From a virus (lineage: Duplodnaviria; Heunggongvirae; Uroviricota; Caudoviricetes), in the IMG/VR virus record IMGVR_UViG_2913167280_000005, positions 1 to 34,109 of that record: a stretch of 34,109 bases of DNA; one strand, given 5' to 3'. The position numbers were made by a program, and so were the translations under genes. The stretch's first letter is position 1; each line of letters begins with the position of its first letter. The notes beneath the pieces are model-generated. The model was not told the DNA's origin. It made no database searches and saw only the letters and a list, made by a program, of their open reading frames with translations. Shown piece by piece: positions 1 through 33,750 of the stretch.

Positions 1-285
1 ATGGGCACACCACGATTTACCCCAGAGTTTAAGGAGGAAGCTGTCCGTCAGGTTACTGAACGGGGCTATTCCGTTGCCGATGTTTCTGAACGCCTCGGCG
101 TATCGGCTCACAGCCTTTATAAGTGGGTCCGGTCAGTCAGACCGGATAACAGCGAGCATCAGGCGCAGGATTTACTGGATGCGCGGACGGAGATTCTCAG
201 GCTTAAAGCGCAGCTTAAACGTACTGAGGAAGAACGGGATATTCTGAAAAAGGCAGCGCGGTACTTTGCAAGGGAGCCCGACTGA
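1..285 (+). CDS. IS3-family transposase OrfA (HTH DNA-binding part)
   Basis: 94-aa ORF starting at window position 1; motif FTPEFKEEAVRQV and a leucine-zipper-like C-terminus as in IS3-family OrfA (family knowledge). The true start may be at or upstream of position 1. Confidence 0.85.
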   Translation: MGTPRFTPEFKEEAVRQVTERGYSVADVSERLGVSAHSLYKWVRSVRPDNSEHQAQDLLDARTEILRLKAQLKRTEEERDILKKAARYFAREPD

Positions 286-332
286 AGTACCGCTTCATCA
301 ACGATCACCGTGAAATCTGGTCGATCGTAACA

Positions 333-1136
333 ATGTGTCGGGTTCTGAAGGTCGCCCGTGCGGGATTTTACGTCTGGCTTCATCGCCCTGTTTCTGCCGG
401 AGAAAAGGATAATCAGCGGTTGCTGGAGCTCATCCGCGATGCTTATGCACTGAGCGGCGGAGTCTACGGTTATCGCAGGGTTCACGGCGATCTTCGTGAA
501 ATCGGTGAAGTATGCAGCAGAAACCGAGTTGCCAGAATCATGAAGCGGAACAGGATACAGGCCGTACATGGCTATAAGGTCCCGCGTGGCGTCAGGGGAA
601 GGCCGTCACTGATAGCTCCTAATCGCGTACAGCGGGAATTTACGGTGGTAAAACCCAACCAGGTGTGGGTAACTGATATTACCTACATCCGCACCTGGCA
701 GGGTTGGCTGTATCTGGCGGTGGTTATCGATCTTTTTGCCCGTAATGTGGTGGGCTGGTCGATGAAACCAACGCTGTCGCGCGAGCTGGCACTGGATGCG
801 CTGCTGATGGCAGTCTGGCGGCGTAAGCCTGCAGAAAACGTCATAGTGCACAGCGATCAGGGCAGTCAGTATGGCAGTGATGACTGGCAGCGGTTCTGCA
901 GGGCCAACAATCTGGCGCCGAGCATGAGCCGTCGTGGCAACTGCTGGGATAATGCGGTGGCAGAATCGTTCTTCAGTTCACTGAAAAAAGAGCGCATCAG
1001 AAAGCGGATATATAAAACCCGGGACATGGCCCGGGCGGATATCTTCGATTACATTGAAGTGTTCTACAACCGGACCCGACGCCACAGTCATCTGGGTGGC
1101 GTCAGCCCGGAGGCCTTCGAAAAGGCCTCACCGTGA
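333..1136 (+). CDS. IS3-family transposase OrfB (DDE catalytic domain), likely made as an OrfAB fusion by -1 frameshift near 247-252
   Basis: 267-aa ORF with rve-type integrase-core motifs (VWVTDITYI, LYLAVVIDLFARNVVGW, GNCWDNAVAESFF); the frame is open upstream to the slippery site. Confidence 0.85.
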   Translation: MCRVLKVARAGFYVWLHRPVSAGEKDNQRLLELIRDAYALSGGVYGYRRVHGDLREIGEVCSRNRVARIMKRNRIQAVHGYKVPRGVRGRPSLIAPNRVQREFTVVKPNQVWVTDITYIRTWQGWLYLAVVIDLFARNVVGWSMKPTLSRELALDALLMAVWRRKPAENVIVHSDQGSQYGSDDWQRFCRANNLAPSMSRRGNCWDNAVAESFFSSLKKERIRKRIYKTRDMARADIFDYIEVFYNRTRRHSHLGGVSPEAFEKASP

Positions 1137-1330
1137 GGACAGAAACTGTCTACCGGAATGTGGTCACTCCATACCTTGATCATCAAAAGCTGGTATTTTA
1201 TTAGCTCGTTCAGCAGAAGACGGTAACTGATTAATTTGCTCAGGAACCCGTAATGTACGACCTAAGTTAGTGCTGGCAGTAGAGTCAACATAGTTCTTTG
1301 TGGCTGCATCCTGCGGCTGAGATGGGTCTT

Positions 1331-1765
1331 TTAAATTACGGATGTAATTATTAGTGCATCATAATAATTTGAGATAAAGGAAGGCTTACGAAGGGCTAGC
1401 CGAAGGAAACCGAAGCATTGCTGTATCAGCATTGTCAACTTATCGAAAGCATCCTCGTGAACCTCGGCGAAAAACTTCCCCTGATTACGGAGATCAATCT
1501 CCTGGGTAACCGGCAGGTCGCGAGAGATCGAAATCTGCCAGGCAGTAGTGAGTGGCGTAGCCAGAACTACATTGCCGCCGGAATATGACCCGGCACCTTG
1601 CACTGTGTAATCAGTGTCAAGAATCAGCGTGGTTAGGTTCTCGTCAAGATCCACAACCTGTACAACCAGGTCGGCTTTCTGGAAGATTCGGAAGGTGTAT
1701 GGGAATGAAGTCGTGACTCCGTTCCCGTTATATTCATTGTGGTCGACTTCGGTAGAGACCGTCAT
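1331..1765 (-). pseudogene. tail fibre/tailspike gene, N-terminal particle-binding fragment only (truncated)
   Basis: Starts MTVSTEVDHNEYNGNGVTTSFPYTFRIF, recalled as the conserved N-terminus of enterobacterial phage tail fibre/tailspike proteins; ATG at 1765 with GGAGA 7 nt upstream (track ORF begins at an upstream GTG at 1804). Only 144 codons, with no distal receptor-binding or catalytic domain, and it ends about 200 bp from the IS. Confidence 0.55.
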
Positions 1766-1865
1766 GTCTTTTCTCCAGATGTTCAGCGCCCGGCGCGCAT
1801 ACACATCTCCATTCTATTACCCATAAATCCTTATATGAATCGAATGAATAACAATCAGTTGTTTT

Positions 1866-1882
1866 ATTACCCTTTGGGTAAT
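1866..1882. promoter_or_regulatory. operator-like dyad ATTACCCTTTGGGTAAT (site G)
   Basis: Perfect 17-bp dyad read directly; lies in the intergenic region between the tail fibre start and the plus-strand 86-aa ORF. Confidence 0.35.
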
Positions 1883-1958
1883 TTGCACAACGTGCTGGAT
1901 AGGCTGCGAAACTTCTGATATATGTATATATATACAGTGCTCGCATGGAGAACACGAG

Positions 1959-2219
1959 ATGCAACGGCAGTATCATCACCCTCTGGAAGATGGATTCGCA
2001 GAACGCATACACACGCCGGGAGGCGTAAGATCCCTGATTGAAGAATCGCACCTGATGGACTTGCTGAGAGAGTTGCAAAAAGACGGGTACGACGTTAGCG
2101 GGGCAACGGCGGAACTTACCGCGCTTGTTAACTACGTCACAAGCTCACAAATTTCTATGAAAGATTTGCAGACACATCTGGACTACTGCGCCATGCAGCT
2201 ACAGCAGCAACTTAGATAG
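1959..2219 (+). CDS. hypothetical 86-aa protein encoded antisense to the late operon (moron-like)
   Basis: ORF with GGAGA 7 nt upstream of its ATG, preceded by an AT-rich tract (TATATGTATATATATACA) and followed by a GC hairpin at 2231-2246. No recognisable domain. Confidence 0.35.
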   Translation: MQRQYHHPLEDGFAERIHTPGGVRSLIEESHLMDLLRELQKDGYDVSGATAELTALVNYVTSSQISMKDLQTHLDYCAMQLQQQLR

Positions 2220-2230
2220 TAAGAATGGAA

Positions 2231-2250
2231 GGCCGCAGAAGCGGCCTTTG
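2231..2250. terminator. GC-rich hairpin (GGCCGC-AGAA-GCGGCC) with short T tract; possible bidirectional terminator
   Basis: Stem-loop read directly; followed by TTTG on the plus strand and by TTCCATTCTT on the minus strand. The U tracts are weak. Confidence 0.35.
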
Positions 2251-2261
2251 TGACATGTCAC
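2250..2261. repeat. 12-bp palindrome GTGACATGTCAC, copy 1 of 3
   Basis: Exact palindrome overlapping the stop codon of the 64-aa membrane-protein gene; the same motif recurs at 20545 and 22897. Confidence 0.45.
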
Positions 2262-2452
2262 AGAAGAGGAAGTTTGAACACGATCGCCGCCAGCACCACA
2301 AACGTTAGGAAGTAGACAGCTTTTGACGATGTTTCTCCTAGCAAGCCCTTATCAATAGCAAAGATTATCGCCCACAAATATGCGGTTCCGCAGGCAACAA
2401 CCACAGCAAACCAGAAGATAATCAGACCTAGCTTCAGTAAAATATCCATCAT
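2258..2452 (-). CDS. small membrane protein (64 aa, 2-3 predicted TM helices); virion/ejection-associated or holin-like
   Basis: Strongly hydrophobic sequence (LGLIIFWFAVVVACGTAYLWAIIFAI, AVYFLTFVVLAAIVF); start overlaps the stop of the upstream gene. Confidence 0.5.
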   Translation of the reverse strand: MMDILLKLGLIIFWFAVVVACGTAYLWAIIFAIDKGLLGETSSKAVYFLTFVVLAAIVFKLPLL

Positions 2453-10698: not shown

Positions 10699-13172
10699 CA
10701 GAATCCTCCCACGGTAATGCGAGGGATAACCGCCAGCACAGACAGCGGTAGCGGGTCAGTTTGCTGCACTTTAATGCGCCCGTTCTTATCCCAGTCGCTG
10801 TCCAGTTTCACTTCTACTTTGCCAGTGGCGTCGTCAACTGGATCGTCGTAAAACTCAAACTCGCGCTGTGGGTACTCGTACCACTTTCCGCCAGGTGTTG
10901 ATGCAAAGATGCCGCGGCTGGCATTCACCACCAGCGTAACGGTAGGGATTATCTGTTTTTTATCGAGCAGCGTTTCCTGCCCGTTAATATTGATGTCCAG
11001 CGTTTCAAACTGAGCATTAATCGGCAGGCCGATATGCACCACGCCGCCGGGAGATTCCAGCGTTACCTTGCCGGCAGTGACAATTTTCTGAGGCTCGACG
11101 CTGGCATCAGACAGAATGTTTACTGTTTGGCCTTCAAGGTGATTAAGCCCGGCAAACGTCATACGCGCCATGCGCCAGTTGGTGGTTGCGGTGTTTCGCA
11201 GTACCGGAGGAATGTTGCGGTTAGCGCGAACGGTGACGACAGTTCCGCTGGTATAAGCAACGATGTCACAACGCAGCTCCATATCAACCGGCTCGCCTGA
11301 AACCGGATCTGTTCCGATGTATGGCATCTGTATTTGAGAACCGACATCACCGGCATTGAAGTAGCTGGCGCTCATAGTCAGCGTGTAATCAGTTTGATAG
11401 ATCCAGTCTCCGCTACCGCCGCTGATAGTTGCCGTTGTTGTTCCAGTGTTGCGGCCATCATAGCTCAGTCCACAGTCTACAAAGAAGGCATCCAGATCGT
11501 TGGTGAACTGACGGCTCGAAAGGCGTTCGATGTAACGGACTGTCTGACCGTTAATGACACGCTTCACGCTGAAATACACGGCATCTTCGTCGCCTTCGCT
11601 GATGCAACAAGTGCTTTCATAGAATCCGGCGCTGGACTGCGGAGCCCAGGCGAAGACCTGCTGATCACGAAGATAGGTCAGCACCAGTAGTTTGCCATCG
11701 TCACGAATGCAGAAAGCGCTGGAGTACGGCACAATACAAAATGACCAATCGACCAGGCTGTGCTTCTGAAACAGATGGTTTGCCAGAATGGTAAGGTCTG
11801 AACCCTGATACCCGTCAACGTCGAACGAATAGGCCAGATCCCGCACCACGCTGCCTTTTTCCTGAATGAACAACGCGATGTTTGCCACGGCAATTGGCGG
11901 CACATTGCTACATCCGTTTGAGCCCTGAGAGCTGAAAGAGAATGCGCTTGGTGTCAGCACCTTATTCTGGTCACCGGACACCACATATTCACCACCGGAT
12001 GTCAGCACCACCAGTGATCCCACATCAATCAGGTGACGGATCTCATTCACCTGCCGCCCGGCGTAGGTGTAGATAATCCGGTCATCGTCCTGCGTCGGGT
12101 TGTTCTTGCCGAAGTCTTTGTAATCGCCTGTACGGCTGGCCCAGATAGTTTGCGGGAACGCGGTAGACGCGGCGAAGTAAAGACGCTGCTGGTAATACAC
12201 CACGGTGCCGGGATAGCCGTTTACGCTATTCCAGGCATATGGTGCCCACTTGTAGCTGGCCTTATCAGTGCCCACCACGTTCTCAGGAACGCGTGATACC
12301 ACGGTTGCGGTCGCGCTTTTGTTATTTCCTGCTACGGCAGTAATGCGGACAATGCCAAATCCAGAGTGCAGGTATTCCCACTGGATTCCAGTATCATCGT
12401 CACCAGTTCCGCCCCAGCCATCCCACGACATCCCCTCAGTGTGAGACGGTCGCAGAGTGCCAGTTTTCCCGGCAGTGTTTGCCCGGTAGTAATTGCTGTC
12501 AGCGCGGCGGATATCATCAATAACTGTTGTCTTGCTGGTCTCCCATACAGGAACGGAGTCAACAGCAGGCTGCTCAAGATAAAAAAGCGTGCCCACTAGT
12601 TCACTGCCGAAAATTGCTGAGTTTGATACGAGGGCAACAGTGCCGGTTGTGCCGCTGGAATAGACGGTGATCGACTCATCAACGTTGATATCTTCGAATG
12701 GGCCGTTGCTAGTCACCACATCGACTATCTGCCAACTATCATGGGCAAATCTGCGAAGCTCTTTCGGCGGGTACGACGGATGCACCAGAGTCAGCACATC
12801 GGCGCTTTGTGTGAATTTGATACGGAACAGATCTGCTTCGGTGTACGGCATCGCCAATTCATAAATGACGTTGCTGCTGTTGAGCACGTATGCGCCGTCT
12901 TTGATAACGCGCATGTAGTTGTGGCCGAACTCCAGCGCATAGGTCTGGATGGTCGAGAACTGGAACGGGATCAGACGGCATTTTCTTGTTGGATATTTTG
13001 CAGCGCCGATGAACTGTGTGCCAGGACGGTTCTCAACGCCGCCATATTGACGAACGATGAAGTTGTCGCATTTACGCAGCGCAACCTGGTATTTAGCCAT
13101 GTCGATACGCCCGTACAGCGACGGGCCAATTTCACCACCAGCAAAGCTCGGTTGTATCCAGCTCACAGCCAT
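10698..13172 (-). CDS. tail tube/nozzle protein (824 aa; T7 gp12-like by size and position)
   Basis: Large ORF immediately downstream of the adaptor-like gene; start overlaps the upstream stop. Confidence 0.55.
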   Translation of the reverse strand: MAVSWIQPSFAGGEIGPSLYGRIDMAKYQVALRKCDNFIVRQYGGVENRPGTQFIGAAKYPTRKCRLIPFQFSTIQTYALEFGHNYMRVIKDGAYVLNSSNVIYELAMPYTEADLFRIKFTQSADVLTLVHPSYPPKELRRFAHDSWQIVDVVTSNGPFEDINVDESITVYSSGTTGTVALVSNSAIFGSELVGTLFYLEQPAVDSVPVWETSKTTVIDDIRRADSNYYRANTAGKTGTLRPSHTEGMSWDGWGGTGDDDTGIQWEYLHSGFGIVRITAVAGNNKSATATVVSRVPENVVGTDKASYKWAPYAWNSVNGYPGTVVYYQQRLYFAASTAFPQTIWASRTGDYKDFGKNNPTQDDDRIIYTYAGRQVNEIRHLIDVGSLVVLTSGGEYVVSGDQNKVLTPSAFSFSSQGSNGCSNVPPIAVANIALFIQEKGSVVRDLAYSFDVDGYQGSDLTILANHLFQKHSLVDWSFCIVPYSSAFCIRDDGKLLVLTYLRDQQVFAWAPQSSAGFYESTCCISEGDEDAVYFSVKRVINGQTVRYIERLSSRQFTNDLDAFFVDCGLSYDGRNTGTTTATISGGSGDWIYQTDYTLTMSASYFNAGDVGSQIQMPYIGTDPVSGEPVDMELRCDIVAYTSGTVVTVRANRNIPPVLRNTATTNWRMARMTFAGLNHLEGQTVNILSDASVEPQKIVTAGKVTLESPGGVVHIGLPINAQFETLDININGQETLLDKKQIIPTVTLVVNASRGIFASTPGGKWYEYPQREFEFYDDPVDDATGKVEVKLDSDWDKNGRIKVQQTDPLPLSVLAVIPRITVGGF

Positions 13173-19080: not shown

Positions 19081-19287
19081 TTACTGTCCGAGCAGCGTTT
19101 TACCGCTGGTATTTGCGGTCGAGGTATCGCCTTGCGCACCGGTCAGCATCGTGGACTTCTGCCCGGCAGCAGCACGGCGTCGACGTTCTTCATCGTCACG
19201 CGCTGACACAACGGCCTGATCCTGTTCCTGTGGTGCGGCCTGAACTTCTGGTGCCGCTGGTACTGAAGGTGAGCCACCCATGCACAT
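19081..19287 (-). CDS. small hypothetical protein (68 aa) upstream of the portal gene
   Basis: ORF with GGAG about 9 nt upstream; Ala/Gln/Arg-rich. Confidence 0.45.
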   Translation of the reverse strand: MCMGGSPSVPAAPEVQAAPQEQDQAVVSARDDEERRRRAAAGQKSTMLTGAQGDTSTANTSGKTLLGQ

Positions 19288-19355
19288 AAACGTAACTCCG
19301 CACGCAATTAAATTATTACCAATTTAACCACATAAGGATTATTTTACGTAGTGCA

Positions 19356-19393
19356 TTGACATTTTATCGAGCAATTATTACCTTAAAGGTAAT
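19356..19393 (+). promoter_or_regulatory. candidate sigma70-type promoter (TTGACA, 17-bp spacer, TACCTT) overlapped by operator dyad ATTACCTTAAAGGTAAT (site A)
   Basis: TTGACA at 19356-19361; dyad at 19377-19393 overlapping the -10 position. Confidence 0.35.
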
Positions 19394-19399
19394 TAATCA

Positions 19400-20156
19400 T
19401 TGCATGATTGATTTGGTGAAGGATGTTGCTATGTGACATTCAACTCACCAGATGAGCCGAATAATTCAGGTTATCGGCTCACAACATGAGAGTGCATTCC
19501 TGACTATCCCCATACGGTAAGCCGTTAAATCCAAATGGTGGAGTGTGCTCTCAGTTGTGAATAACAACCGTTGTATGGCACATGCAGCGATAGCGGTCCG
19601 GCGGGTTCCTTGTAGGGTTCCCTTTCCTAGCCGGGTAGCCGGAATGTGCAAGCCTGGCTCGCTAACGGCCTTAGGGCGATTCACCATCGTGGCGATACGG
19701 TGTGACACCTCGGAAGAGACGAGGATGCAATGATGAGAGCATTGGTCATGGAGCGGTGGAGAATGAATCTGAGCTTCTTGGCGGTTGCAGCGGATTCTTA
19801 CATGAAAACCTGTGCTTTCTTCATTGTGGCAATGCGGCTGTGCGCACGTGACGAGGCATTTCATTCCACGCTTGAAATGAAAAGTTATCTAATAGTTTAA
19901 CGTCGTCAGCCGTAGCCGGGCTGACAGGTGGAGGCACCACCGCCACAAATCAAATCACGCCTCAGGACCGTTATACCCGTAGTACCTGTAACGATAGCTT
20001 TAACTTGGCGGTGTCAGAAACAACCATCCCGAAGTCGCTGGCACCGCCCTTTTTACACCAGAACGTCATTGCGATGGCTTTCCGTTGTAAACCCGTAATG
20101 CCAAGGAAGGCAGACTCCCATGCTTCCAGCTCGCCCACTTCGGTGGGCATTTTTTT
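19400..20156 (+). ncRNA. long untranslated leader / candidate structured RNA ending in an intrinsic terminator
   Basis: About 750 nt with no convincing ORF on either strand; stable hairpins at 19452-19480 and 19904-19924; a long GGCGGTG...CACCGCC hairpin plus CTTTTT at 20008-20055; canonical terminator at 20133-20156. Confidence 0.3.
20133..20156 (+). terminator. intrinsic terminator (GCCCAC-TTCG-GTGGGC plus 7 T) abutting the ribosome-binding site of the downstream ORF
   Basis: Perfect 6-bp GC stem with a 4-nt loop and U tract; AAGGTGA follows immediately, with the ATG at 20169. Confidence 0.7.
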
Positions 20157-20168
20157 AAGGTGAAAATT

Positions 20169-20540
20169 ATGAAAGAGATTGAAGAACTTAACCCGCCACG
20201 CGGCGAGATGACAGAATACCTAAAACAAGCTATCGGCGAAGGATATCAGCCTGAGCATGAAGATGCGGTATCTGACCTGTCAGTGATTGATGGTCTGAAT
20301 GATGGAGATCTGAATCGTGAGTTCGGTAAGTGCTGGCAGTGGTACAATATGGGCGGCGGACTCCATGAAACATTAGAGAATGGACTATCAAAATCAGATG
20401 CCGATTACCGCAGTGAACACTTATACAACATGAAATTACAATGCCTGCATGCGGCGATTATTCAGAATGGGCTATTCGATAAAACCAATGCCACCAATAT
20501 TGCGGAAGCAATCAACGCTGGATTCGATGCCATTAAGTAA
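20169..20540 (+). CDS. acidic hypothetical protein (123 aa), plus-strand accessory gene between terminase and portal
   Basis: ATG at 20169 with AAGGTGA 5 nt upstream (track start is a GTG at 20160); about 23 Asp/Glu against 11 Lys/Arg; no recognisable domain. Confidence 0.6.
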   Translation: MKEIEELNPPRGEMTEYLKQAIGEGYQPEHEDAVSDLSVIDGLNDGDLNREFGKCWQWYNMGGGLHETLENGLSKSDADYRSEHLYNMKLQCLHAAIIQNGLFDKTNATNIAEAINAGFDAIK

Positions 20541-20544
20541 CACC

Positions 20545-20556
20545 GTGACACGTCAC
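20545..20556. repeat. 12-bp palindrome GTGACACGTCAC, copy 2 of 3
   Basis: Begins 5 nt after the TAA stop of the 123-aa ORF. Confidence 0.45.
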
Positions 20557-20715
20557 AATCATCCTGCTCATCTGTATTGGTTTATGAACTCAACATTGTT
20601 ATTCTGAATAGCGCGGTAAATTCTCGGGCTAACGAGACGGGGAAAGAAGGTGGCTGTTGTCAACCTGCCACATGCTGGGTATCAGCACCAGCTACCGCGC
20701 ACTGATGATGTCATG

Positions 20716-20741
20716 AGCCAGCCGATGCGCTGGCTTTTTTT
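20716..20741 (+). terminator. intrinsic terminator (AGCCAGC-6 nt-GCTGGCT plus 6 T) closing the plus-strand cassette
   Basis: Stem-loop and U tract read directly; ends 6 nt before the convergent terminase large-subunit stop codon. Confidence 0.7.
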
Positions 20742-20746
20742 GTGCA

Positions 20747-22213
20747 TCATGCAAAGGGGTCATAATCTGTTATGGCTTTCCCTTGCTGCTGACCCGGCAG
20801 ATTCATCTTCTTCGCTACCGGAAACGCGAAGGTCAGCAGTAGCGCGTCACCGTCACCAGGCGAACGCCCGAGACGATCTTTAATGTCTTCTTTCGGCTCC
20901 ATCACAATCTTGCCATCCACCCTGACTTTGTACTCTGCCGCCGACAGGTCATCGGCAGTCTGCTGATTGTCAAGCATACCGCCGAGCTTCAGCCATGACT
21001 TGCAACTGTTGAACATCTCGCCGCGCTTGTTAAGCATTTGCGGATCTGTTGATGCGCCACCGAACGGAACAAGTTGCCATGAACGCCCCCAGCCATCACT
21101 GACAGATTTCAGCCCGGTTCCGTAGCCGAAGTCGATGAACACTGCGTCGGCCTTGTACTCGTCCTCGAAGTCGGCGATGCGCTTCGCCATAATCAGGTCG
21201 TCGGTTGTCTTCGAGCCAGACCAGAGCTTTTTGCTATGCAGCCCCTGGCGCAGGTATATCACCGCGTCATCAGCACCGGAGTATGCCGGATCAACGCCGA
21301 TAATCACCGGCGCATGAGCCACCTGCGCAGCGGTAACGACGCGCTTCATCGCAGCATCAGTGAGCCCGGTCGGGATAAACTGCAGCTCTGATGCATCAGG
21401 GAAGATCCCACGCACGCGAACCTTCACGAAGTCAGAATCCTCGCCGTAATCGTCAACCCACTTCTGCAACTGCTCTTTGTTCGTGCCCTCTACGGTGCGG
21501 GAATCAATCTGCGCCGTCTTCCACCGATGCTTGTATTTGCGGAAGCACTCGCGGAAACGTCCGGTGTTTCGCGTCGGGTTACCGAACGCCACCCAAATAA
21601 TCTCGGTGTCCTCGTCCGTCAGAGCGCCCTCGGCAACCTCCCACACCAGATCGGCAATGTTGGATGCTTCATCGAATACCACAATGATCCGCTTGCGCTC
21701 GTTGTGCAGCCCGGCGAATGCCTCGGTATTGTGCTCAGACCATGGGATAGCGTCAGCACGCCAGCGCTTATCATGCCCGGCATCGTTGCTGTACATCGCT
21801 GTGGCGGTGCAGGTGAACCACTCTTTTGTGATAGCCAGGTTCGACCATTTGATGATTTCCGGCCATGTCTTGGTGCGAAGCTGGTTATCGGTGTTGGCGG
21901 TCACCACCACCTTGCAGTCCTCGCAGGTGGACATGCCCCAGTTAATCAGCATCGAGATGAATGCCGATTTCCCGATGCCGTGTCCGGATGCGCGGGCAAT
22001 CATCAGCGGCTGGTAACGTGTTGCGGGATTCTGGAGGTGATCTCGTATCTCGCGGAATGCGTCTGCCTGCCACTTACGCGGCCCAGTAGCGTGTGACAGC
22101 TCGGTGCCATCCTCACCCCAAGGGAATGCATACAGTGCATAGCCAAGCGGGTCATGTGTAAACCCGGCAATGTCCTCGATGAGTTGCTCTTCTGGCGACG
22201 GTGATTCGGTCAT
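20747..22213 (-). CDS. terminase large subunit (488 aa)
   Basis: Walker A-like GHGIGKS; ATG at 22213 overlaps the small-subunit stop (ATGA); size typical. Confidence 0.9.
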   Translation of the reverse strand: MTESPSPEEQLIEDIAGFTHDPLGYALYAFPWGEDGTELSHATGPRKWQADAFREIRDHLQNPATRYQPLMIARASGHGIGKSAFISMLINWGMSTCEDCKVVVTANTDNQLRTKTWPEIIKWSNLAITKEWFTCTATAMYSNDAGHDKRWRADAIPWSEHNTEAFAGLHNERKRIIVVFDEASNIADLVWEVAEGALTDEDTEIIWVAFGNPTRNTGRFRECFRKYKHRWKTAQIDSRTVEGTNKEQLQKWVDDYGEDSDFVKVRVRGIFPDASELQFIPTGLTDAAMKRVVTAAQVAHAPVIIGVDPAYSGADDAVIYLRQGLHSKKLWSGSKTTDDLIMAKRIADFEDEYKADAVFIDFGYGTGLKSVSDGWGRSWQLVPFGGASTDPQMLNKRGEMFNSCKSWLKLGGMLDNQQTADDLSAAEYKVRVDGKIVMEPKEDIKDRLGRSPGDGDALLLTFAFPVAKKMNLPGQQQGKAITDYDPFA

Positions 22214-22800
22214 TTCTCACCAGCCTCTCTGATGCGGCGGCGCGCGGATGCCATGCGGTCTGCAATGGTGACGGTGCCGGAAACCTCGAGGCGTTCTTTG
22301 AACGCCATAACATCGACGTGCTTGCCGATGAGCTCCAGATTCTTCACCTTGTCGGGCCATTTTATCTTTTTGAGGATGCCGACCAGTTCTTTCTCATCGC
22401 CGCGCCCCTCAAACATGTCTGCCAACTCGAATCCGGTAAGATACTGGCGCCAGACCCTCGGCCACTCCGAAACCGGTTTAATACTCATGTCATCGTTCAG
22501 AATGTCGATCACATCCATCTGGTCGATTTCCACCAGGCGAAGCAGAACATAATCAGCGCTGACGCGGGTGCGCTTGTTGCGCTCCTCCATGAGTTCAGCA
22601 ATCCGTTTCTGGATTCGCTCATCGCGCATCATGACGCTGGCTTTGACCGCCGCCGTATTAGGAGAAAATCCTGCGTCTATCGCCGCCTGAGACTGATTTT
22701 CAGGGCTCTTGATGTATGACTGGCAGTAAGCCTCCTGCATCGCTGTAAGCGGCTTAAATTGCGTTGATTTGCGTTTGTGTGGTTTTGGTTCCGCTGGCAT
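22210..22800 (-). CDS. terminase small subunit (about 196 aa)
   Basis: Directly upstream of and coupled to the large subunit; ATG at 22800 with GGTGG upstream (track start is a TTG at 22812). Confidence 0.75.
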   Translation of the reverse strand: MPAEPKPHKRKSTQFKPLTAMQEAYCQSYIKSPENQSQAAIDAGFSPNTAAVKASVMMRDERIQKRIAELMEERNKRTRVSADYVLLRLVEIDQMDVIDILNDDMSIKPVSEWPRVWRQYLTGFELADMFEGRGDEKELVGILKKIKWPDKVKNLELIGKHVDVMAFKERLEVSGTVTIADRMASARRRIREAGEK

Positions 22801-22802
22801 TG

Positions 22803-22837
22803 TTACCACCAAAGTAATTAATTACCGTTGTGGTAAT
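22803..22837. promoter_or_regulatory. two adjacent operator-like dyads (GTTACCACCAAAGTAAT and ATTACCGTTGTGGTAAT; sites B0 and B) just upstream of the terminase small-subunit start
   Basis: Read directly; centres 19 bp apart; B0 is a 4/5 half-site match. Confidence 0.4.
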
Positions 22838-22845
22838 ACTATCAT

Positions 22846-22873
22846 GCAAAACAAAGCCGCCATAGTCGGCGGC
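22846..22873 (-). terminator. intrinsic terminator (GCCGCC-6 nt-GGCGGC plus TTTGTTTTG) immediately upstream of the late operon
   Basis: Hairpin and U tract on the minus strand, between the small early genes and the terminase start. Confidence 0.6.
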
Positions 22874-22896
22874 CGTTGCTGTTATTTATATTCATC

Positions 22897-22908
22897 GTGA
22901 CATGTCAC
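22897..22908. repeat. 12-bp palindrome GTGACATGTCAC, copy 3 of 3
   Basis: Directly abuts the stop codon (22910-22912) of the 56-aa gene, upstream of the late-operon terminator. Confidence 0.45.
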
Positions 22909-22909
22909 A

Positions 22910-23080
22910 TCACCCGTACCACTTCTCCATGCTATCGAAAATATCAGCTGCTTCTTCGCATCCAGTTTCTCGCAGCCACTGGATGATTAGCTCATCTGCG
23001 TCGACGTGAGTAAACCCGGCGTGCCTCTCTGTCTCCTCCGAAAGATGACGTAGCTTGTTTGTGAATTCCTCTTTGGTCAC
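22910..23080 (-). CDS. small acidic hypothetical protein (56 aa), not in the ORF track
   Basis: GTG start at 23080 with strong GGAGGTG 5 nt upstream; overlaps the stop of the 112-aa gene; translated by hand as MTKEEFTNKLRHLSEETERHAGFTHVDADELIIQWLRETGCEEAADIFDSMEKWYG. Confidence 0.45.
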   Translation of the reverse strand: MTKEEFTNKLRHLSEETERHAGFTHVDADELIIQWLRETGCEEAADIFDSMEKWYG

Positions 23081-23081
23081 T

Positions 23082-23420
23082 TCACACCTCCAGTTTTACG
23101 TTATGCCAACCCATTGTAACCCAGCACGACGAATCACCATCGAACGGACACAACTCAACCGGCAGCATATCGCCGCATTTCCCGCAGCGGTTCGCGCCGA
23201 TTGATTTGATACGACCACGAACGCGAGCATCATCCTGGCGGATCAGCATCGCGATGTATTCGCTCATCTCGTACGGCGCGCGCCCAGGGCGACGGGCGGC
23301 GCAATTTCGCGCCAGCATATCCACTTCCTGTTCGTCGAGATACAGTTCCAGTTTGCGTTCACCGGCGGCGGTTTGCCGGGCGCGCTGCGCTGCTTTGCGC
23401 TCTGCTGCTGATTTAGTCAT
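23082..23420 (-). CDS. basic protein with C-terminal zinc ribbon (112 aa); candidate late-gene regulator or antiterminator by position
   Basis: C-terminal CGKCG...C...C motif and Arg-rich N-terminus; last sizeable gene before the terminator and late operon. The functional call is positional inference only. Confidence 0.55.
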   Translation of the reverse strand: MTKSAAERKAAQRARQTAAGERKLELYLDEQEVDMLARNCAARRPGRAPYEMSEYIAMLIRQDDARVRGRIKSIGANRCGKCGDMLPVELCPFDGDSSCWVTMGWHNVKLEV

Positions 23421-23820
23421 TGCTCTTCCCCTGCTGCGGTGCTGATGGCAGTGCGCAAGCTTCTACAGCAGATTCATGAATCTGCTTGATGGTGTCCCAC
23501 CCAATAGTAATTTCACCATCCCAGCCGCCTTCCTCGTTGCAGTCCTCACAACCTACACCGCCGCACGACTGGCAGAGGATACGATGTGTAACCTGGAACT
23601 CTCCGGATAAGGCACCCTTAGCGCCATTTTCAGCGGTGAGCTTTTTAGGCATAACACAGTAACCTTCCAACTGCGCGTGTGCATCAATAACCGCCAAAAT
23701 GAATTTAGACATGACGGCCAGCTCTTCATAATTAGCGCCGGTAAATCCACCCAGCCCATCAGTCCAGTCTTCAAGAAGCTCGCGGCGCGGTAGTTGCTGT
23801 TTCAATTCGTCAATAGTCAT
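23413..23820 (-). CDS. hypothetical protein with CxxC-GxG-CxxC zinc-finger motif (135 aa)
   Basis: CQSCGGVGCEDC motif; coupled ORF. Confidence 0.55.
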   Translation of the reverse strand: MTIDELKQQLPRRELLEDWTDGLGGFTGANYEELAVMSKFILAVIDAHAQLEGYCVMPKKLTAENGAKGALSGEFQVTHRILCQSCGGVGCEDCNEEGGWDGEITIGWDTIKQIHESAVEACALPSAPQQGKSND

Positions 23821-28193: not shown

Positions 28194-28260
28194 TTCTATT
28201 GCCTGATATTAATTTCAGATAACCAATATTCACCCATAAGGTAACAAAAAGCAAGGTTCG

Positions 28261-28346: not shown

Positions 28347-28934
28347 ATGAAAAGTATCCACGATATTCGCCGCAAGAACCTCATCGATTTAATCGAACGC
28401 GATTTTAACGGTGTGCAAACGCGCCTGGCGGAGCGCCTGGATACTCAGCCTAATCTGGTAAACCGCTGGGCTCGTGGCACTAAAATCATCGGCGACCAGT
28501 CTGCACGTAAAATTGATATGGCAGCCAACAAGCCGACAAACTGGCTCGACACAGATCATGAACTTGTTTCTGTATCGGAATTCCAGCCGGTTGGCCCGAG
28601 TGATATCGGATTGCTGGCAGCTGAGAACCTGGCGCGCTGGATGCGTGAAAGTCGCGACCTGTCTACCCAGGGTAAGCTATCACGGGCATCAGGTGTGGCG
28701 CAGTCAACGCTGAACAGAATGCTCAACAATGAAGCCAGCATCACCCTTGCCACCCTGGAAGCCATCGCTGCCCCGTTCGGTCGCCGCGGTTATGAGTTGC
28801 TCATCCATCCGAAAGACCCCGCAGGAATCAGATACGACAGAACGAAGTACGCATCGTTACCTGAAAGCGAGAAAAGTAAGATTGAAAGTTTCATTGATTT
28901 TGTGATTACTCAGCACGCAAACAACCAGCTATAA
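28347..28934 (+). CDS. prophage repressor with two HTH (XRE-type) motifs, no S24 peptidase domain
   Basis: GVQTRLAERLDTQPNLVNRWARG and LSRASGVAQSTLNRMLNNE look like HTH segments; divergent from the Cro-like gene and followed by a strong terminator. Confidence 0.7.
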   Translation: MKSIHDIRRKNLIDLIERDFNGVQTRLAERLDTQPNLVNRWARGTKIIGDQSARKIDMAANKPTNWLDTDHELVSVSEFQPVGPSDIGLLAAENLARWMRESRDLSTQGKLSRASGVAQSTLNRMLNNEASITLATLEAIAAPFGRRGYELLIHPKDPAGIRYDRTKYASLPESEKSKIESFIDFVITQHANNQL

Positions 28935-33113: not shown

Positions 33114-33750
33114 GTACACGCTAATCTACGCAGATCCGCCTTGGGTTTACCGTGACAAAGCTGCCGACGGAAGCCGCGGGGCCGGGTTCAAATACCCGGT
33201 AATGAACGTCATGGATATATGCCGCCTGCCAGTATGGGATCTGGCCGCCGACGATTGCCTTCTGGCGATGTGGTGGGTGCCGACTCAACCGGTCGAAGCG
33301 CTGAAGGTTGTCGAGGCATGGGGATTCAGGCTGATGACCATGAAGGGCTTCACCTGGCACAAAACGAATAAGCACAAAGGCAACAGCGCGATAGGAATGG
33401 GCCACATGACCCGGGCGAACAGCGAAGACTGTCTGTTTGCCGTTCGAGGAAAACTACCGGCGCGCATGGATGCCTCGATATGCCAGCACATCACGGCACC
33501 GCGGATGGAGAACTCGCGCAAGCCGGATCTCATTCGCGAAAAACTGGTGCAGTTGCTTGGCGATGTACCAAGGATCGAGCTTTTCGCCCGCCAGTCGTCG
33601 CATGGCTTCGACGTATGGGGCAATCAGTGCGAAGGCCCGGCGGTGAAGTTGCAACCAGGATATGCGCTTGATATCGCTGGATTGACGCAGGCATTAAAAA
33701 ACACTCCGCTATCACCATCAGATAAGCAGGGCCAGGAGCGTGCAGCATGA
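33106..33750 (+). CDS. MT-A70-family DNA N6-adenine methyltransferase
   Basis: IYADPPW catalytic motif near the N-terminus; ATG at 33106 (an alternative ATG at 33094 is in frame; track start at 32926). Confidence 0.85.
   Translation: MTKYTLIYADPPWVYRDKAADGSRGAGFKYPVMNVMDICRLPVWDLAADDCLLAMWWVPTQPVEALKVVEAWGFRLMTMKGFTWHKTNKHKGNSAIGMGHMTRANSEDCLFAVRGKLPARMDASICQHITAPRMENSRKPDLIREKLVQLLGDVPRIELFARQSSHGFDVWGNQCEGPAVKLQPGYALDIAGLTQALKNTPLSPSDKQGQERAA

What the first reader, a model, noticed from the sequence alone, without database searches (positions are those of the whole stretch)
22803..23420. Late-operon control region: terminator directly upstream of terminase, preceded by small Zn-ribbon and acidic genes
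Reading the minus strand: a 112-aa basic Zn-ribbon protein, an overlapping 56-aa acidic ORF with strong GGAGGTG (absent from the ORF track), the GTGACATGTCAC palindrome, an intrinsic terminator (22846-22873), then two operator-like dyads (22803-22837) and the terminase start. A terminator immediately before the late genes implies antitermination or a dedicated late promoter between terminator and terminase. The Zn-ribbon protein is the obvious candidate regulator, but nothing in the sequence proves it.
Basis: inference. Interest (0 to 1): 0.5.

Follow-up and report, generated by a model that had tools for sequence, protein, structure and literature searches.

The report
Repressor-controlled late promoter behind a terminator
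This is the junction between the early genes and the DNA-packaging genes of an epsilon15-like prophage: a real terminator followed by a probable promoter covered by two binding sites for the prophage's own repressor, a layout already annotated in phage epsilon15. The small zinc-ribbon protein is not a Q-like antiterminator; it is a ribbon-helix-helix DNA binder that travels with a 12-base palindrome resembling the bacterial matS site.

Summary
The window is an epsilon15/SPC32H-type prophage; the 112-aa protein is identical to one from Escherichia sp. E2593.

The early-right operon ends with the 112-aa gene, a real 56-aa gene, the palindrome GTGACATGTCAC and a strong intrinsic terminator. Right after the U-tract lies TGATAGTAT. 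Its TG-n-TA-nn-AT pattern is invariant in 33 distinct relatives, which fits an extended -10 promoter.

The two dyads are copies of ATTACC-N5-GGTAAT, the immunity operator. The window has 4 perfect copies, including some in the repressor/cro intergenic region and at PL. GenBank annotates the same motif as a repressor site upstream of epsilon15 terS. So the late unit appears to have its own promoter, held off directly by the repressor.

The 112-aa protein models as a ribbon-helix-helix domain plus a Cys4 module and shows no Q or Ogr resemblance. Its relatives coexist with Q-type regulators in other phages. Its likely target is the palindrome, not the dyads. GTGAC-NN-GTCAC occurs 3-4 times in each of six genomes that encode the protein and never in lambda or P22. 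It usually sits between a stop codon and a terminator, and it has the arms of matS with a spacer one base shorter.

The control region is ordinary. The protein/palindrome pair is undescribed.

The parts
23082..23420 (-). 112-aa gene (p112), the homolog of epsilon15 gp49 and N15 gp46: a basic N-terminal helix, a ribbon-helix-helix domain, a long helix and a Cys4 module. It is the last conserved gene of the early-right operon.
22910..23080 (-). 56-aa acidic gene (p56), inserted between p112 and the palindrome. GTG start, with GGAGGTG at 23085-23091.
   Evidence: Absent from 80 p112 loci. 26 small-protein representatives at E<1e-3, with conserved H, D, G and WY. The order p112, p56, palindrome recurs in L296.
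22897..22908 (.). 12-bp palindrome GTGACATGTCAC: matS arms with a 2-bp spacer. It is the probable binding site of p112.
   Evidence: It overlaps or follows the stop codon of p112 homologs in epsilon15-like, lambdoid, N15-like, ZF40 and Vibrio VPHZ6 phages. There are 3 copies in the window.
22846..22874 (-). Intrinsic terminator ending the early-right operon: GGCCGCCGACTATGGCGGCT followed by TTGTTTTG.
   Evidence: Annotated as rho-independent at the same place in epsilon15. Conserved in 23 of 32 distinct relatives.
22836..22844 (-). Putative extended -10 promoter element TGATAGTAT (TG-n-TAGTAT) for terS-terL. The inferred start is near 22828-22829. There is no recognisable -35.
   Evidence: TG, TA and AT are invariant in 33 of 33 distinct sequences, while the n positions and the upstream flank vary. 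The same -10/operator overlap occurs at PL and at the resolvase promoter.
22821..22837 (.). Operator O1, ATTACCACAACGGTAAT: a perfect repressor (Rep) operator that overlaps the -10 element and the inferred start site.
   Evidence: The homologous site in epsilon15 is annotated protein_bind 'repressor' at 12-27.
22802..22818 (.). Operator O2, ATTACTTTGGTGGTAAC: 2 mismatches, and it contains the terS Shine-Dalgarno GGTGG (22806-22810).
   Evidence: The O1-O2 gap is 1-3 bp in relatives.
22210..22800 (-). Small terminase gene (ATG at 22800), first gene of the late unit. The large terminase gene follows at 20747-22213.
   Evidence: PF03592 at E 9e-28 and phrog_51.
20545..20556 (.). Second palindrome copy, GTGACACGTCAC: 4 nt after the stop of the convergent plus-strand moron (20160-20540), downstream of terL.
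   Evidence: In about 70 relatives the order on the moron strand is stop, 4 nt, palindrome, 4 nt, terminator hairpin, TTTGTTTT.
2250..2261 (.). Third palindrome copy. It overlaps the TGA stop of the 64-aa gp18-like gene (2258-2452, minus strand), 3 nt before the hairpin GGCCGCTTCTGCGGCC. The ant gene converges on it.
   Evidence: The same arrangement is seen in epsilon15 at 19517-19528.
28347..28934 (+). Immunity repressor (Rep), the protein expected to bind O1 and O2.
   Evidence: E 9.7e-45 to the SPC32H repressor, PDB 5d50_A. Operators lie in its intergenic regions at 28229, 28277, 28991 and 29053.
1959..2219 (+). Antirepressor (Ant) homolog. It is preceded by a LexA-box-like sequence and by a perfect Rep operator at 1866-1882.
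   Evidence: E 8e-41 to PDB 5d50_E, 'Anti-repressor protein'. Sequence context.

Best explanation
The stretch is the boundary between the early-right operon and the first late (packaging) transcription unit of an epsilon15/SPC32H-type prophage.

Transcription from PR runs through the replication and accessory genes and ends with p112 and p56. It is stopped by a strong intrinsic terminator at 22846-22874.

terS-terL is then transcribed from its own sigma-70 promoter of the extended -10 type (TGATAGTAT, 22836-22844), which starts directly after the terminator's U-tract. Two 17-bp operators cover that promoter's -10/+1 region and its short leader, including the ribosome-binding site. These are O1 (22821-22837) and O2 (22802-22818), both for the immunity repressor Rep.

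In the lysogen Rep, which is described as binding DNA as a tetramer, sits on O1 and O2 and silences the packaging genes directly. The terminator keeps out read-through from upstream genes and morons. When the LexA-controlled antirepressor Ant removes Rep, PR, PL and the Rep-controlled late promoters open together. The portal unit (operator at 19377) and the region upstream of the tailspike/ant (operator at 1866) carry similar operators.

p112 is not needed in this scheme. It is a ribbon-helix-helix plus Cys4 DNA-binding protein whose probable target is the palindrome GTGAC-NN-GTCAC, found at the 3' ends of transcription units next to their terminators.

**Shown:** the sequence features, their conservation, their copy number, the homology of Rep and Ant, and the RHH-like model.

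**Inferred:** promoter activity, Rep binding at O1/O2, p112 binding to the palindrome, and what that binding does.
For: **Operators**
- 4 perfect, 7 with at most 1 mismatch, and 11 with at most 2 mismatches, against 0, 0.03 and 0.56 in shuffles.
- They lie in the Rep/cro intergenic region, around the predicted PL, before the resolvase gene, before the portal unit and before terS.
- The same motif is annotated 'protein_bind repressor' at seven places in epsilon15, including 12-27 before terS.
- Rep is a homolog of the SPC32H repressor. That repressor is described as binding palindromic sites as a tetramer (PMC9638917).
- Ant is a homolog of the SPC32H antirepressor.

**Promoter**
- The alignment was anchored only on O1 and the terS start. 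In it TG, TA and A(T) are invariant in 33 of 33 distinct sequences from 106 loci. The three n positions each take 3 different bases.
- The flank upstream of TG falls into two unrelated classes: a terminator tail, or the 3' end of a umuD-like moron.
- The last two bases of the -10 hexamer are the first two of the operator here (TAGT|AT). The same holds at PL (AATT|AT, with TTGACA 17 bp upstream) and at the resolvase promoter (TTTA|AT, with TTGATA 17 bp upstream).

**Terminator:**

**p112 is not a late-gene switch**
- Relatives lie in nin regions upstream of NinB and of a Phage_antitermQ protein.
- N15 has its own annotated late activator.

**p112 and the palindrome**
- The palindrome follows the stop codon of homologs down to 39-40% identity in N15-like and Vibrio phages.
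- There are 3-4 exact copies in each of six p112-encoding genomes and none in lambda or P22.
Against: - There is no transcript-mapping data for any relative in the searchable literature. The promoter therefore rests on conservation alone.
- There is no -35. The invariant TG/TA could instead belong to an extended protein-binding site.
- Rep binding to this motif is inferred from position and from an in-silico GenBank annotation. The SPC32H papers could not be read.
- All relatives use the same half-site although their Rep proteins are only 43-74% identical. No specificity-covariation test was therefore possible.
- A purely Rep-controlled late promoter gives no delay between early and late genes. 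Some further control may exist.
- At the portal-unit operator I could not find the same -10/operator overlap.
- For p112 there is no significant sequence link to any RHH family. Some homologs lack the adjacent palindrome: the Yersinia P2-like phage, Vibrio K303, the Aeromonas phage, and L009/L083.
Confidence: 0.6

Rival explanations
1. Site-specific antitermination by p112; this is the first reader's idea, updated. p112, the last conserved early gene, would bind the palindrome just upstream of each terminator that separates the late units. There it would let RNA polymerase coming from PR read through, switching late genes on with a delay. The Rep operators would only back this up in the lysogen.
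For: - The palindrome lies between a stop codon and a terminator at all three unit ends in the window and in epsilon15.
- A terminator-like hairpin starts within 40 nt in 155 of 323 distinct palindrome contexts, against 21 of 600 random positions.
- p112 is encoded immediately upstream of the first such terminator.
- No Q or N homolog was noticed in the window.
- A purely Rep-controlled promoter would give no temporal delay.
Against: - RHH proteins are classical operator binders. None is known to modify elongating polymerase, and the model shows no Q-like fold.
- The site is symmetric. At sites 2 and 3 it serves convergent genes, so it has no polarity.
- In N15-like phages the site at the gp46 stop is followed by the next gene's ribosome-binding site, not by a terminator, and a second site lies inside repA.
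- In lambdoid relatives Q, and presumably N, already provide antitermination.
- Nine or ten distinct relatives have no terminator before terS at all.
Confidence: 0.15
2. The palindrome is not a p112 site. It would instead be bound by a host protein, with MatP the obvious candidate given identical half-sites. Alternatively it would be a conserved boundary sequence at which phage modules and morons are exchanged by recombination. Its linkage to p112 would then be positional only.
For: - The arms GTGAC/GTCAC are those of matS, GTGACRNYGTCAC (PMC6907758).
- Mosaic junctions fall exactly after the palindrome. Downstream of it come at least five unrelated sequences, and after terL the palindrome and terminator are constant while the convergent moron varies.
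- Two of the three copies in the window lie far from p112.
- Copies occur in many IMG/VR contigs whose p112 status is unknown.
Against: - The spacer is strictly 2 bp: 399 such sites against 1 with a 3-bp spacer in 3.05 Mb of fetched loci. True matS has a 3-bp spacer. Bobay et al. found none in 500 prophages (PMC3603311).
- The site follows p112 homologs in phages of quite different types and hosts.
- Lambda and P22, which infect the same hosts and lack p112, have no copy.
- A boundary-sequence role and a protein-binding role do not exclude each other.
Confidence: 0.2
3. The two dyads act on something other than transcription initiation. They would be small-terminase recognition sites (a pac-like site next to terS), or RNA hairpins in the terS leader that hide the ribosome-binding site.
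For: - They lie directly before terS, and O2 contains the Shine-Dalgarno sequence.
- The leader folds into two hairpins at -12.4 kcal/mol, z = -2.3.
- Repeated sites next to the small-terminase gene are known for lambda cosB and SPP1 pacL (own knowledge).
Against: - The identical motif occurs at PR/PL and before non-packaging genes.
- The arms are invariant and show no compensatory change. The one common variant (GGTAAT to GGTAAC in the phiV10-like group) would break an A-U pair rather than preserve it.
- The O1-O2 gap varies by 1-3 bp.
- If transcription starts near 22828, half of O1 is not in the RNA.
Confidence: 0.05

Closest known systems
Salmonella phages epsilon15 and SPC32H (Uetakevirus): Rep/Ant immunity system and the annotated repressor sites
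   Same: - Same gene order: gp49 homolog, terminator, terS.
- Same 17-bp motif, ATTACC-N5-GGTAAT, annotated as a repressor site before terS, before the portal unit, before the tailspike, at PL and before the resolvase gene.
- Rep and Ant are homologs of the crystallised SPC32H proteins.
   Different: - The window carries an extra 56-aa gene between the gp49 homolog and the palindrome.
- It has about 160 nt inserted between the second palindrome and its terminator.
- An IS element lies next to a truncated tailspike gene.
- The epsilon15 record does not annotate the palindrome or any promoter.
Lambda Q / PR' / tR' late switch
   Same: A small regulator gene is the last gene of the early-right operon. 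A DNA site lies right after it, and a terminator stands before the late genes.
   Different: - No sequence or fold similarity to Q proteins.
- No promoter with an embedded binding site and pause element between p112 and the terminator.
- The conserved promoter-like element lies after the terminator, not before it.
- Relatives of p112 coexist with Q-type proteins.
MatP/matS of Enterobacterales and Vibrionales
   Same: - Identical 5-bp arms, GTGAC...GTCAC.
- A few sites per replicon.
- p112 homologs are found in phages of enterobacteria, Vibrio and Aeromonas. These are hosts that have MatP (own knowledge).
   Different: - The spacer is 2 bp, not 3 bp RNY.
- p112 has no four-helix-bundle domain and no C-terminal coiled coil, and it has a Cys4 module instead.
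- Sequence similarity is not significant (hhalign E 0.48).
- The sites sit at operon ends next to terminators.
Repressor sites spread through a phage genome: mycobacteriophage L5 gp71 stoperators and phiC31 conserved inverted repeats (own knowledge)
   Same: One immunity repressor has many sites outside the immunity region, placed at the starts of transcription units, including structural-gene units.
   Different: Here the sites are symmetric 17-bp dyads that overlap promoter -10 elements. They look like initiation blocks, not orientation-dependent elongation blocks.
P2 Ogr, 186 B and P4 Delta zinc-finger late activators (own knowledge)
   Same: A small Cys4 protein encoded at the end of an early operon in a temperate phage, with a dyad target.
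   Different: - The Cys spacing is CxxC-x8-C-x7-C, not C-x2-C-x22-C-x4-C.
- The target is not TGT-N12-ACA at -55.
- Two of the three sites are not upstream of any promoter.
- The DNA-binding part is RHH-like.

Membership tests
Intrinsic (rho-independent) terminator | G+C-rich hairpin immediately followed by a U-tract on the transcribed strand | tested here: met
   8-pair stem with 6 G-C pairs, a 4-nt loop, then TTGTTTTG. The fold is -19.7 kcal/mol for the 67-nt stretch.
Intrinsic (rho-independent) terminator | Position at the end of a transcription unit, and conservation among relatives | tested here: met
   It follows the last early gene. It is conserved in 23 of 32 distinct relatives. Functionally equivalent but unrelated hairpins follow p112 in lambdoid relatives. 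Epsilon15 annotates it.
Intrinsic (rho-independent) terminator | Termination activity in vivo | not testable with these tools
   Needs Term-seq or a reporter assay.
Sigma-70 extended -10 promoter | TG one base upstream of a TAnnnT hexamer | tested here: met
   TGATAGTAT at 22836-22844. TG, T1, A2, A5 and T6 are invariant in 33 of 33 distinct relatives, while the other positions vary.
Sigma-70 extended -10 promoter | Mapped transcription start about 7 nt downstream | not testable with these tools
   No transcript data were found for any Uetakevirus.
Epsilon15/SPC32H Rep operator | 17-bp dyad ATTACC-N5-GGTAAT | tested here: met
   O1 is a perfect match and O2 has 2 mismatches.
Epsilon15/SPC32H Rep operator | The same motif clustered between the repressor and cro genes and at PL of the same phage, which encodes a Rep homolog | tested here: met
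   Sites at 28229, about 28254, 28277, 28991 and 29053. Rep matches 5d50_A at E 9.7e-45.
Epsilon15/SPC32H Rep operator | Binding by Rep | not testable with these tools
   It rests on position and on the GenBank annotation. The primary papers are not held.
Q-type antiterminator (lambda, 82 and 21 types) | Sequence or fold similarity to a Q family | tested here: not met
Q-type antiterminator (lambda, 82 and 21 types) | Binding element embedded in a promoter located between the regulator gene and the terminator | tested here: not met
   No conserved promoter lies between the palindrome and the terminator. GTGACA could serve as a -35, but no -10 is conserved across the classes (reading of the sequences).
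Ogr/B/Delta zinc-finger late activators | C-x2-C-x22-C-x4-C finger and TGT-N12-ACA sites at -55 of late promoters | tested here: not met
   The Cys pattern is CxxC-x8-C-x7-C. The palindrome is a 5-2-5 dyad, and two of its three copies are not upstream of promoters.
Ribbon-helix-helix (Arc/MetJ/CopG) superfamily | Strand-helix-helix fold | tested here: met
Ribbon-helix-helix (Arc/MetJ/CopG) superfamily | Significant sequence-profile match to an RHH family | tested here: not met
   No Pfam hit for p112. There is only a sub-threshold PF10723 hit for one Vibrio homolog (E 0.034, 14.5 bits against a 21-bit cut-off). hhalign to Arc, CopG and MatP is not significant.
MatP/matS | 13-bp site GTGACRNYGTCAC | tested here: not met
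   The arms are identical but the spacer is 2 bp in all 19 copies across six genomes. There are no 3-bp-spacer copies.
MatP/matS | MatP architecture: N-terminal four-helix bundle, RHH, C-terminal coiled coil | tested here: not met
   p112 has one N-terminal helix, the RHH, a long helix and a Cys4 module.

The most novel reading that the evidence does not exclude
The p112 family and the palindrome GTGAC-NN-GTCAC would form an undescribed phage-borne site-specific DNA-binding system related in logic, and perhaps in ancestry, to MatP/matS. It would be an RHH protein that recognises matS arms with a spacer one base shorter, and so is kept separate from the host's MatP. It would have 3-4 sites per phage genome, placed at the 3' ends of transcription units beside their terminators.

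It would be shared by unrelated temperate phages of MatP-bearing hosts: epsilon15-like podoviruses, lambdoid phages, N15-like telomere phages, ZF40, a Vibrio phage and a satellite-like element.

Its job could be to insulate or modulate termination between units. It could instead bridge or position the phage genome, or interfere with host Ter organisation.
Probability: 0.35. Interest if true: 0.75.

Novelty: new member of a known kind. Interest (0 to 1): 0.45.

Why it matters
For the finding as given, the result is tidy and modest. This prophage apparently keeps its packaging genes off by direct repressor binding at a dedicated promoter, not through a Q-like antiterminator. That layout is already annotated in epsilon15. 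It means the whole lytic programme of these phages hangs on one repressor/antirepressor pair.

- It is a multi-copy element: 3-4 copies per genome against about 0.05 expected.
- It is linked across very different phages to an uncharacterised RHH/Cys4 protein family that carries no Pfam domain and is named only 'hypothetical' or, by transfer, 'transcriptional regulator'.
- It has the half-sites of matS, a motif reported to be avoided by prophages.

If the protein binds the site, this gives a function to a widespread phage gene family. It would also offer a directly testable case of a phage copying, or evolving in parallel with, a host chromosome-organisation system.

Tried and rejected
1. **Rfam.** There were no matches at gathering thresholds in the window, and only chance-level hits in 22600-23500. 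No known leader or antiterminator RNA is present.
2. **Library searches for p112 and its neighbours.** Pfam, NCBIfam and PADLOC returned nothing for p112, p56, or the 135-aa and 160-aa neighbours.
3. **First AF2 model of p112.** A shallow alignment (Neff about 2) gave pLDDT 56 and was discarded. Adding the N15-like and Vibrio groups raised it to 80.8.
5. **hhalign of the p112 profile against Arc, CopG and MatP.** None was significant, so no homology claim is made.
6. **p112 as P22 NinX.** A neighbouring annotation in phage ZX5 suggested this. The two proteins are unrelated despite equal length.
7. **A promoter using GTGACA of the palindrome as a -35.** A plausible -10 exists in some classes (TAAATT, TAACAT) but not in the window, so it was rejected as a general feature (reading).
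8. **The palindrome as an RNA hairpin.** A 5-bp stem with a 2-nt loop is impossible, and a 4-bp stem with a CNNG loop is very weak (one search shows only this 4-pair stem). This is not excluded but is judged unlikely.
9. **A specificity-covariation test between Rep and the terS dyads.** This was impossible because all relatives keep the same half-site.
10. **Literature.** The epsilon15 genome paper and both SPC32H papers are not held. No paper contains GTGACATGTCAC.
11. **A 17-codon ORF running through the terminator** (ATG at 22895 to TGA at 22842). It has no Shine-Dalgarno sequence and is not conserved in relatives, so I treat it as spurious.
Full report
**What the window is.** The minus strand between about 28200 and 2450 carries an early-right operon followed by packaging and virion genes. 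DNA and protein matches place it with Salmonella phage epsilon15, phiV10, SPN1S and SPC32H, genus Uetakevirus. The 112-aa protein is identical to a hypothetical protein of Escherichia sp. E2593. No complete E. coli genome carries a close copy of the region.

The 195-aa protein at 28347-28934 is a homolog of the crystallised SPC32H repressor Rep (5d50_A, E 9.7e-45). The 86-aa protein at 1959-2219 is a homolog of its antirepressor Ant (5d50_E, E 8e-41).

**Checking the observation.**
- The 112-aa ORF (p112) is at 23082-23420.
- The 56-aa ORF (p56) is at 22910-23080. Its GTG start lies six bases after GGAGGTG.
- The palindrome GTGACATGTCAC is at 22897-22908.
- The terminator stem is at 22874-22855, with TTGTTTTG running to about 22846.
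- The two dyads are at 22821-22837 and 22802-22818.
- The terS start is the ATG at 22800. The TTG at 22812 in the ORF list is not conserved as a start.

p56 is absent from 80 loci that encode p112 homologs, but it is a genuine gene. A library-wide phmmer search found 26 cluster representatives of 55-65 aa aligned end to end, with invariant H, D, G and WY. One other element, L296, has the same order: p112, p56, palindrome.

**The dyads are immunity operators.** Both dyads match ATTACC-N5-GGTAAT. The window holds 4 perfect copies, 7 with at most one mismatch and 11 with at most two. Shuffles give 0, 0.03 and 0.56.

The copies are placed as follows:
- three between the Rep and cro genes;
- two around the predicted PL (TTGACA-17-AATTAT);
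- two before the resolvase gene;
- one before the portal unit (19377);
- one upstream of the tailspike and ant genes (1866);
- the two before terS.

The epsilon15 GenBank record marks the same 17-mer as 'protein_bind, repressor' at seven places, including 12-27 directly before terS. A secondary source describes SPC32H Rep as binding palindromic sites as a tetramer, with one tetramer sufficing for repression (PMC9638917). That would fit a pair of adjacent dyads.

I could not read the primary SPC32H or epsilon15 papers. Rep binding at this motif is therefore an inference from position and annotation.

**A promoter between terminator and terS.** I aligned 33 distinct terS-upstream sequences from 106 loci, anchoring them only on O1 and the terS start. 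The nine bases before and into O1 read TG-n-T-A-n-n-A-T. TG, TA and A(T) are invariant, and the three n positions each take three different bases.

Upstream of the TG the sequences split into two unrelated classes: the terminator's U-tract, or the 3' end of a umuD-like moron. This is the information profile of an extended -10 promoter.

The last two bases of the hexamer are the first two of the operator (TAGT|AT). The same holds at PL (AATT|AT) and at the resolvase promoter (TTGATA-17-TTTA|AT).

There is no -35, and no transcript data exist in the searchable literature. Promoter activity is therefore inferred. The terminator itself is conserved in 23 of 32 distinct relatives and is annotated in epsilon15.

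**What p112 is.** It belongs to phrog_536, labelled 'transcriptional regulator'. That label is a transferred name, and every source name in the large protein search is 'hypothetical'. It has no Pfam or NCBIfam domain.

Homologs do not always sit next to late genes.
- In lambdoid phages they lie in the nin region, upstream of NinB (PF05772, E 7e-49) and of a Phage_antitermQ protein.
- In N15 the homolog is gp46, while gp40 is the annotated late activator.

So p112 is a DNA-binding protein, but there is no case for it as the late-gene switch.

**The palindrome is the surprise.**

*Linkage to the gene.* In nearly all p112 loci the stop codon TGA is followed directly by CATGTCAC, so the palindrome overlaps the stop. 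The sequence beyond it falls into at least five unrelated classes. The linkage holds across distant homologs:
- N15, phiKO2, YDC107_1 and Klebsiella phage 020009 all end GTGA|CTGGTCAC.
- ZF40 has TAA-TT-GTGACATGTCAC.
- Vibrio phage VPHZ6, at 40% identity, has TAA-C-GTGACAGGTCAC.

The arms never change, while the central two bases do. In distinct contexts these are AT 247, AG 6, AC 6, TG 6, CC 4, GT 4, CT 2, CA 2 and GG 1.

*More than one copy per genome.* GTGACNNGTCAC occurs exactly three times in the window (22897, 20545, 2250), against 0.047 expected. It occurs 3, 3, 3, 3 and 4 times in epsilon15, N15, Klebsiella 020009, HEMP4 and Kp4865-1. It does not occur in lambda or P22, which lack p112.

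*Position of the copies.*
- The second copy lies after terL. In about 70 relatives the order on the strand of the convergent, highly variable moron is: stop, 4 nt, palindrome, 4 nt, terminator hairpin, TTTGTTTT.
- The third copy overlaps the stop of the gp18-like gene and lies 3 nt before a hairpin shared with the convergent ant gene.
- Overall, a terminator-like hairpin starts within 40 nt in 155 of 323 distinct contexts, against 21 of 600 random positions. These counts are not corrected for shared ancestry.

The phage site has a 2-bp spacer without exception: 399 such sites against one with a 3-bp spacer in 3.05 Mb of fetched loci. Bobay et al. found no true matS in 500 Escherichia and Salmonella prophages and argued that the motif is avoided (PMC3603311). 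No paper in the library contains the 12-mer.

hhalign places p112 residues 25-61 on the RHH of MatP (93-124, 28% identity), but at E 0.48. I claim a resemblance, not homology.

**How the region most likely works.** PR transcripts end at the terminator. terS-terL has its own extended -10 promoter, which Rep occludes in the lysogen by binding O1 and O2. Induction through LexA and Ant frees PR, PL and the Rep-controlled late promoters together. I give this 0.6.

The rivals are as follows.
- p112-dependent antitermination at palindrome-flanked terminators: 0.15. It is attractive because the sites flank each unit and because a purely Rep-controlled promoter gives no delay. It is weakened by the symmetry of the site, by the N15 contexts and by the fold.
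- The palindrome as a host-factor site or a recombination boundary and not a p112 site: 0.2.
- The dyads as terminase sites or RNA hairpins: 0.05.

These rivals bear on different parts of the region, so their probabilities need not sum with the main one.

**Verdict.** The control region is a new member of a known, already annotated kind. The p112/palindrome pairing and its matS likeness are not described anywhere I could search, and they are the part worth an experiment.

Noticed in passing
window 1-1330: An IS3-family-looking element lies at the left end of the window, with a transposase OrfA-like ORF at 1-285 and an OrfB-like ORF at 333-1136. It sits next to a 157-aa ORF (1331-1804, minus strand) that looks like only the N-terminal part of a tailspike. 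The prophage may therefore be defective. The family assignment is from reading the translations, not from a search.
   Followed up: no
window 1866-1960: The ant gene (1959-2219, plus strand) is preceded by TATGTATATATATACAGTG, a LexA-box-like sequence with one mismatch in the CTG half. About 45 nt further upstream is a perfect Rep operator (1866-1882). Ant may thus be under both LexA and Rep control.
   Followed up: partly
L076, L086, L102 and about 40 other phiV10-like loci; also L015, L018, L052: An 8-codon mini-ORF, M-x-D-E-F/Y-D-G-F-stop, lies between the palindrome and the terminator. Its stop codon is 4-5 nt before the hairpin. Gly and Phe codons vary synonymously (GGG/GGA/GGT, TTT/TTC), which suggests it is translated. 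A ribosome stopping there would cover the 5' arm of the terminator, so this could be a translation-coupled attenuator. It is absent from the window.
   Followed up: partly
L009-L011, L014, L016, L017, L020, L068, L074; L007, L019, L098, L135, L154: In these relatives a moron with its own promoter and a perfect LexA box is inserted right after the palindrome. It is either a 109-aa protein starting MAFPSPANDYVE, which resembles UmuD by eye, or an 85-aa protein of unknown function. Neither has a Pfam hit. With the UmuD-like moron, the terminator before terS is missing.
   Followed up: partly
window 20100-20750: A plus-strand moron (20160-20540, 126 aa, no Pfam hit) is convergent with terL. Its promoter-side terminator is at 20129-20148 and its own terminator is at 20715-20736. 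In relatives this slot holds many different genes, while the flanking palindrome and terminator stay constant. It behaves like a cassette site.
   Followed up: partly
L289 (N15) 33237-33248; L299 9621-9632: One of the three palindrome copies of N15-like phages lies inside the repA coding sequence. It is conserved between N15 and Klebsiella phage 020009. This does not fit the 'end of operon' rule seen elsewhere.
   Followed up: no
window 19280-19400 and L085-L164 around 11000-12500: Downstream of the portal-unit operator is a highly conserved block: TGTCAA...CTACG.TAAATAAATCATATGTGGTTAAATTGGTAATAATTTAATTGCGTACGGAG. TGTCAA is TTGACA on the other strand, so a divergent promoter toward the moron is possible. 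The -10/operator overlap seen at terS, PL and the resolvase promoter is not obvious here.
   Followed up: partly
window 23413-23820: The 135-aa protein upstream of p112 carries CQSCGGVGCEDCNEEG, two CxxC motifs in a row that resemble a DnaJ-type zinc finger. Its stop overlaps the p112 start (ATGACTAA), which suggests translational coupling.
   Followed up: no
L296 (IMG/VR 3300048920_000350): A satellite-like or small integrative element carries the p112 homolog, the p56 homolog, the palindrome, an AlpA-like gene and an integrase on the opposite strand. The module therefore also occurs outside full-size phages.
   Followed up: partly
L176, L183, L207, L217 and others among L169-L248: The 14-mer TGTGACATGTCACA also occurs in low-GC (38%) viral contigs and in several recurrent contexts with no p112 homolog in the stretch held. 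One example is ...GAGGTGTGACATGTCACAACAGTCAACC. About 200 chance matches are expected across IMG/VR, so it is open which of these are real sites.
   Followed up: partly
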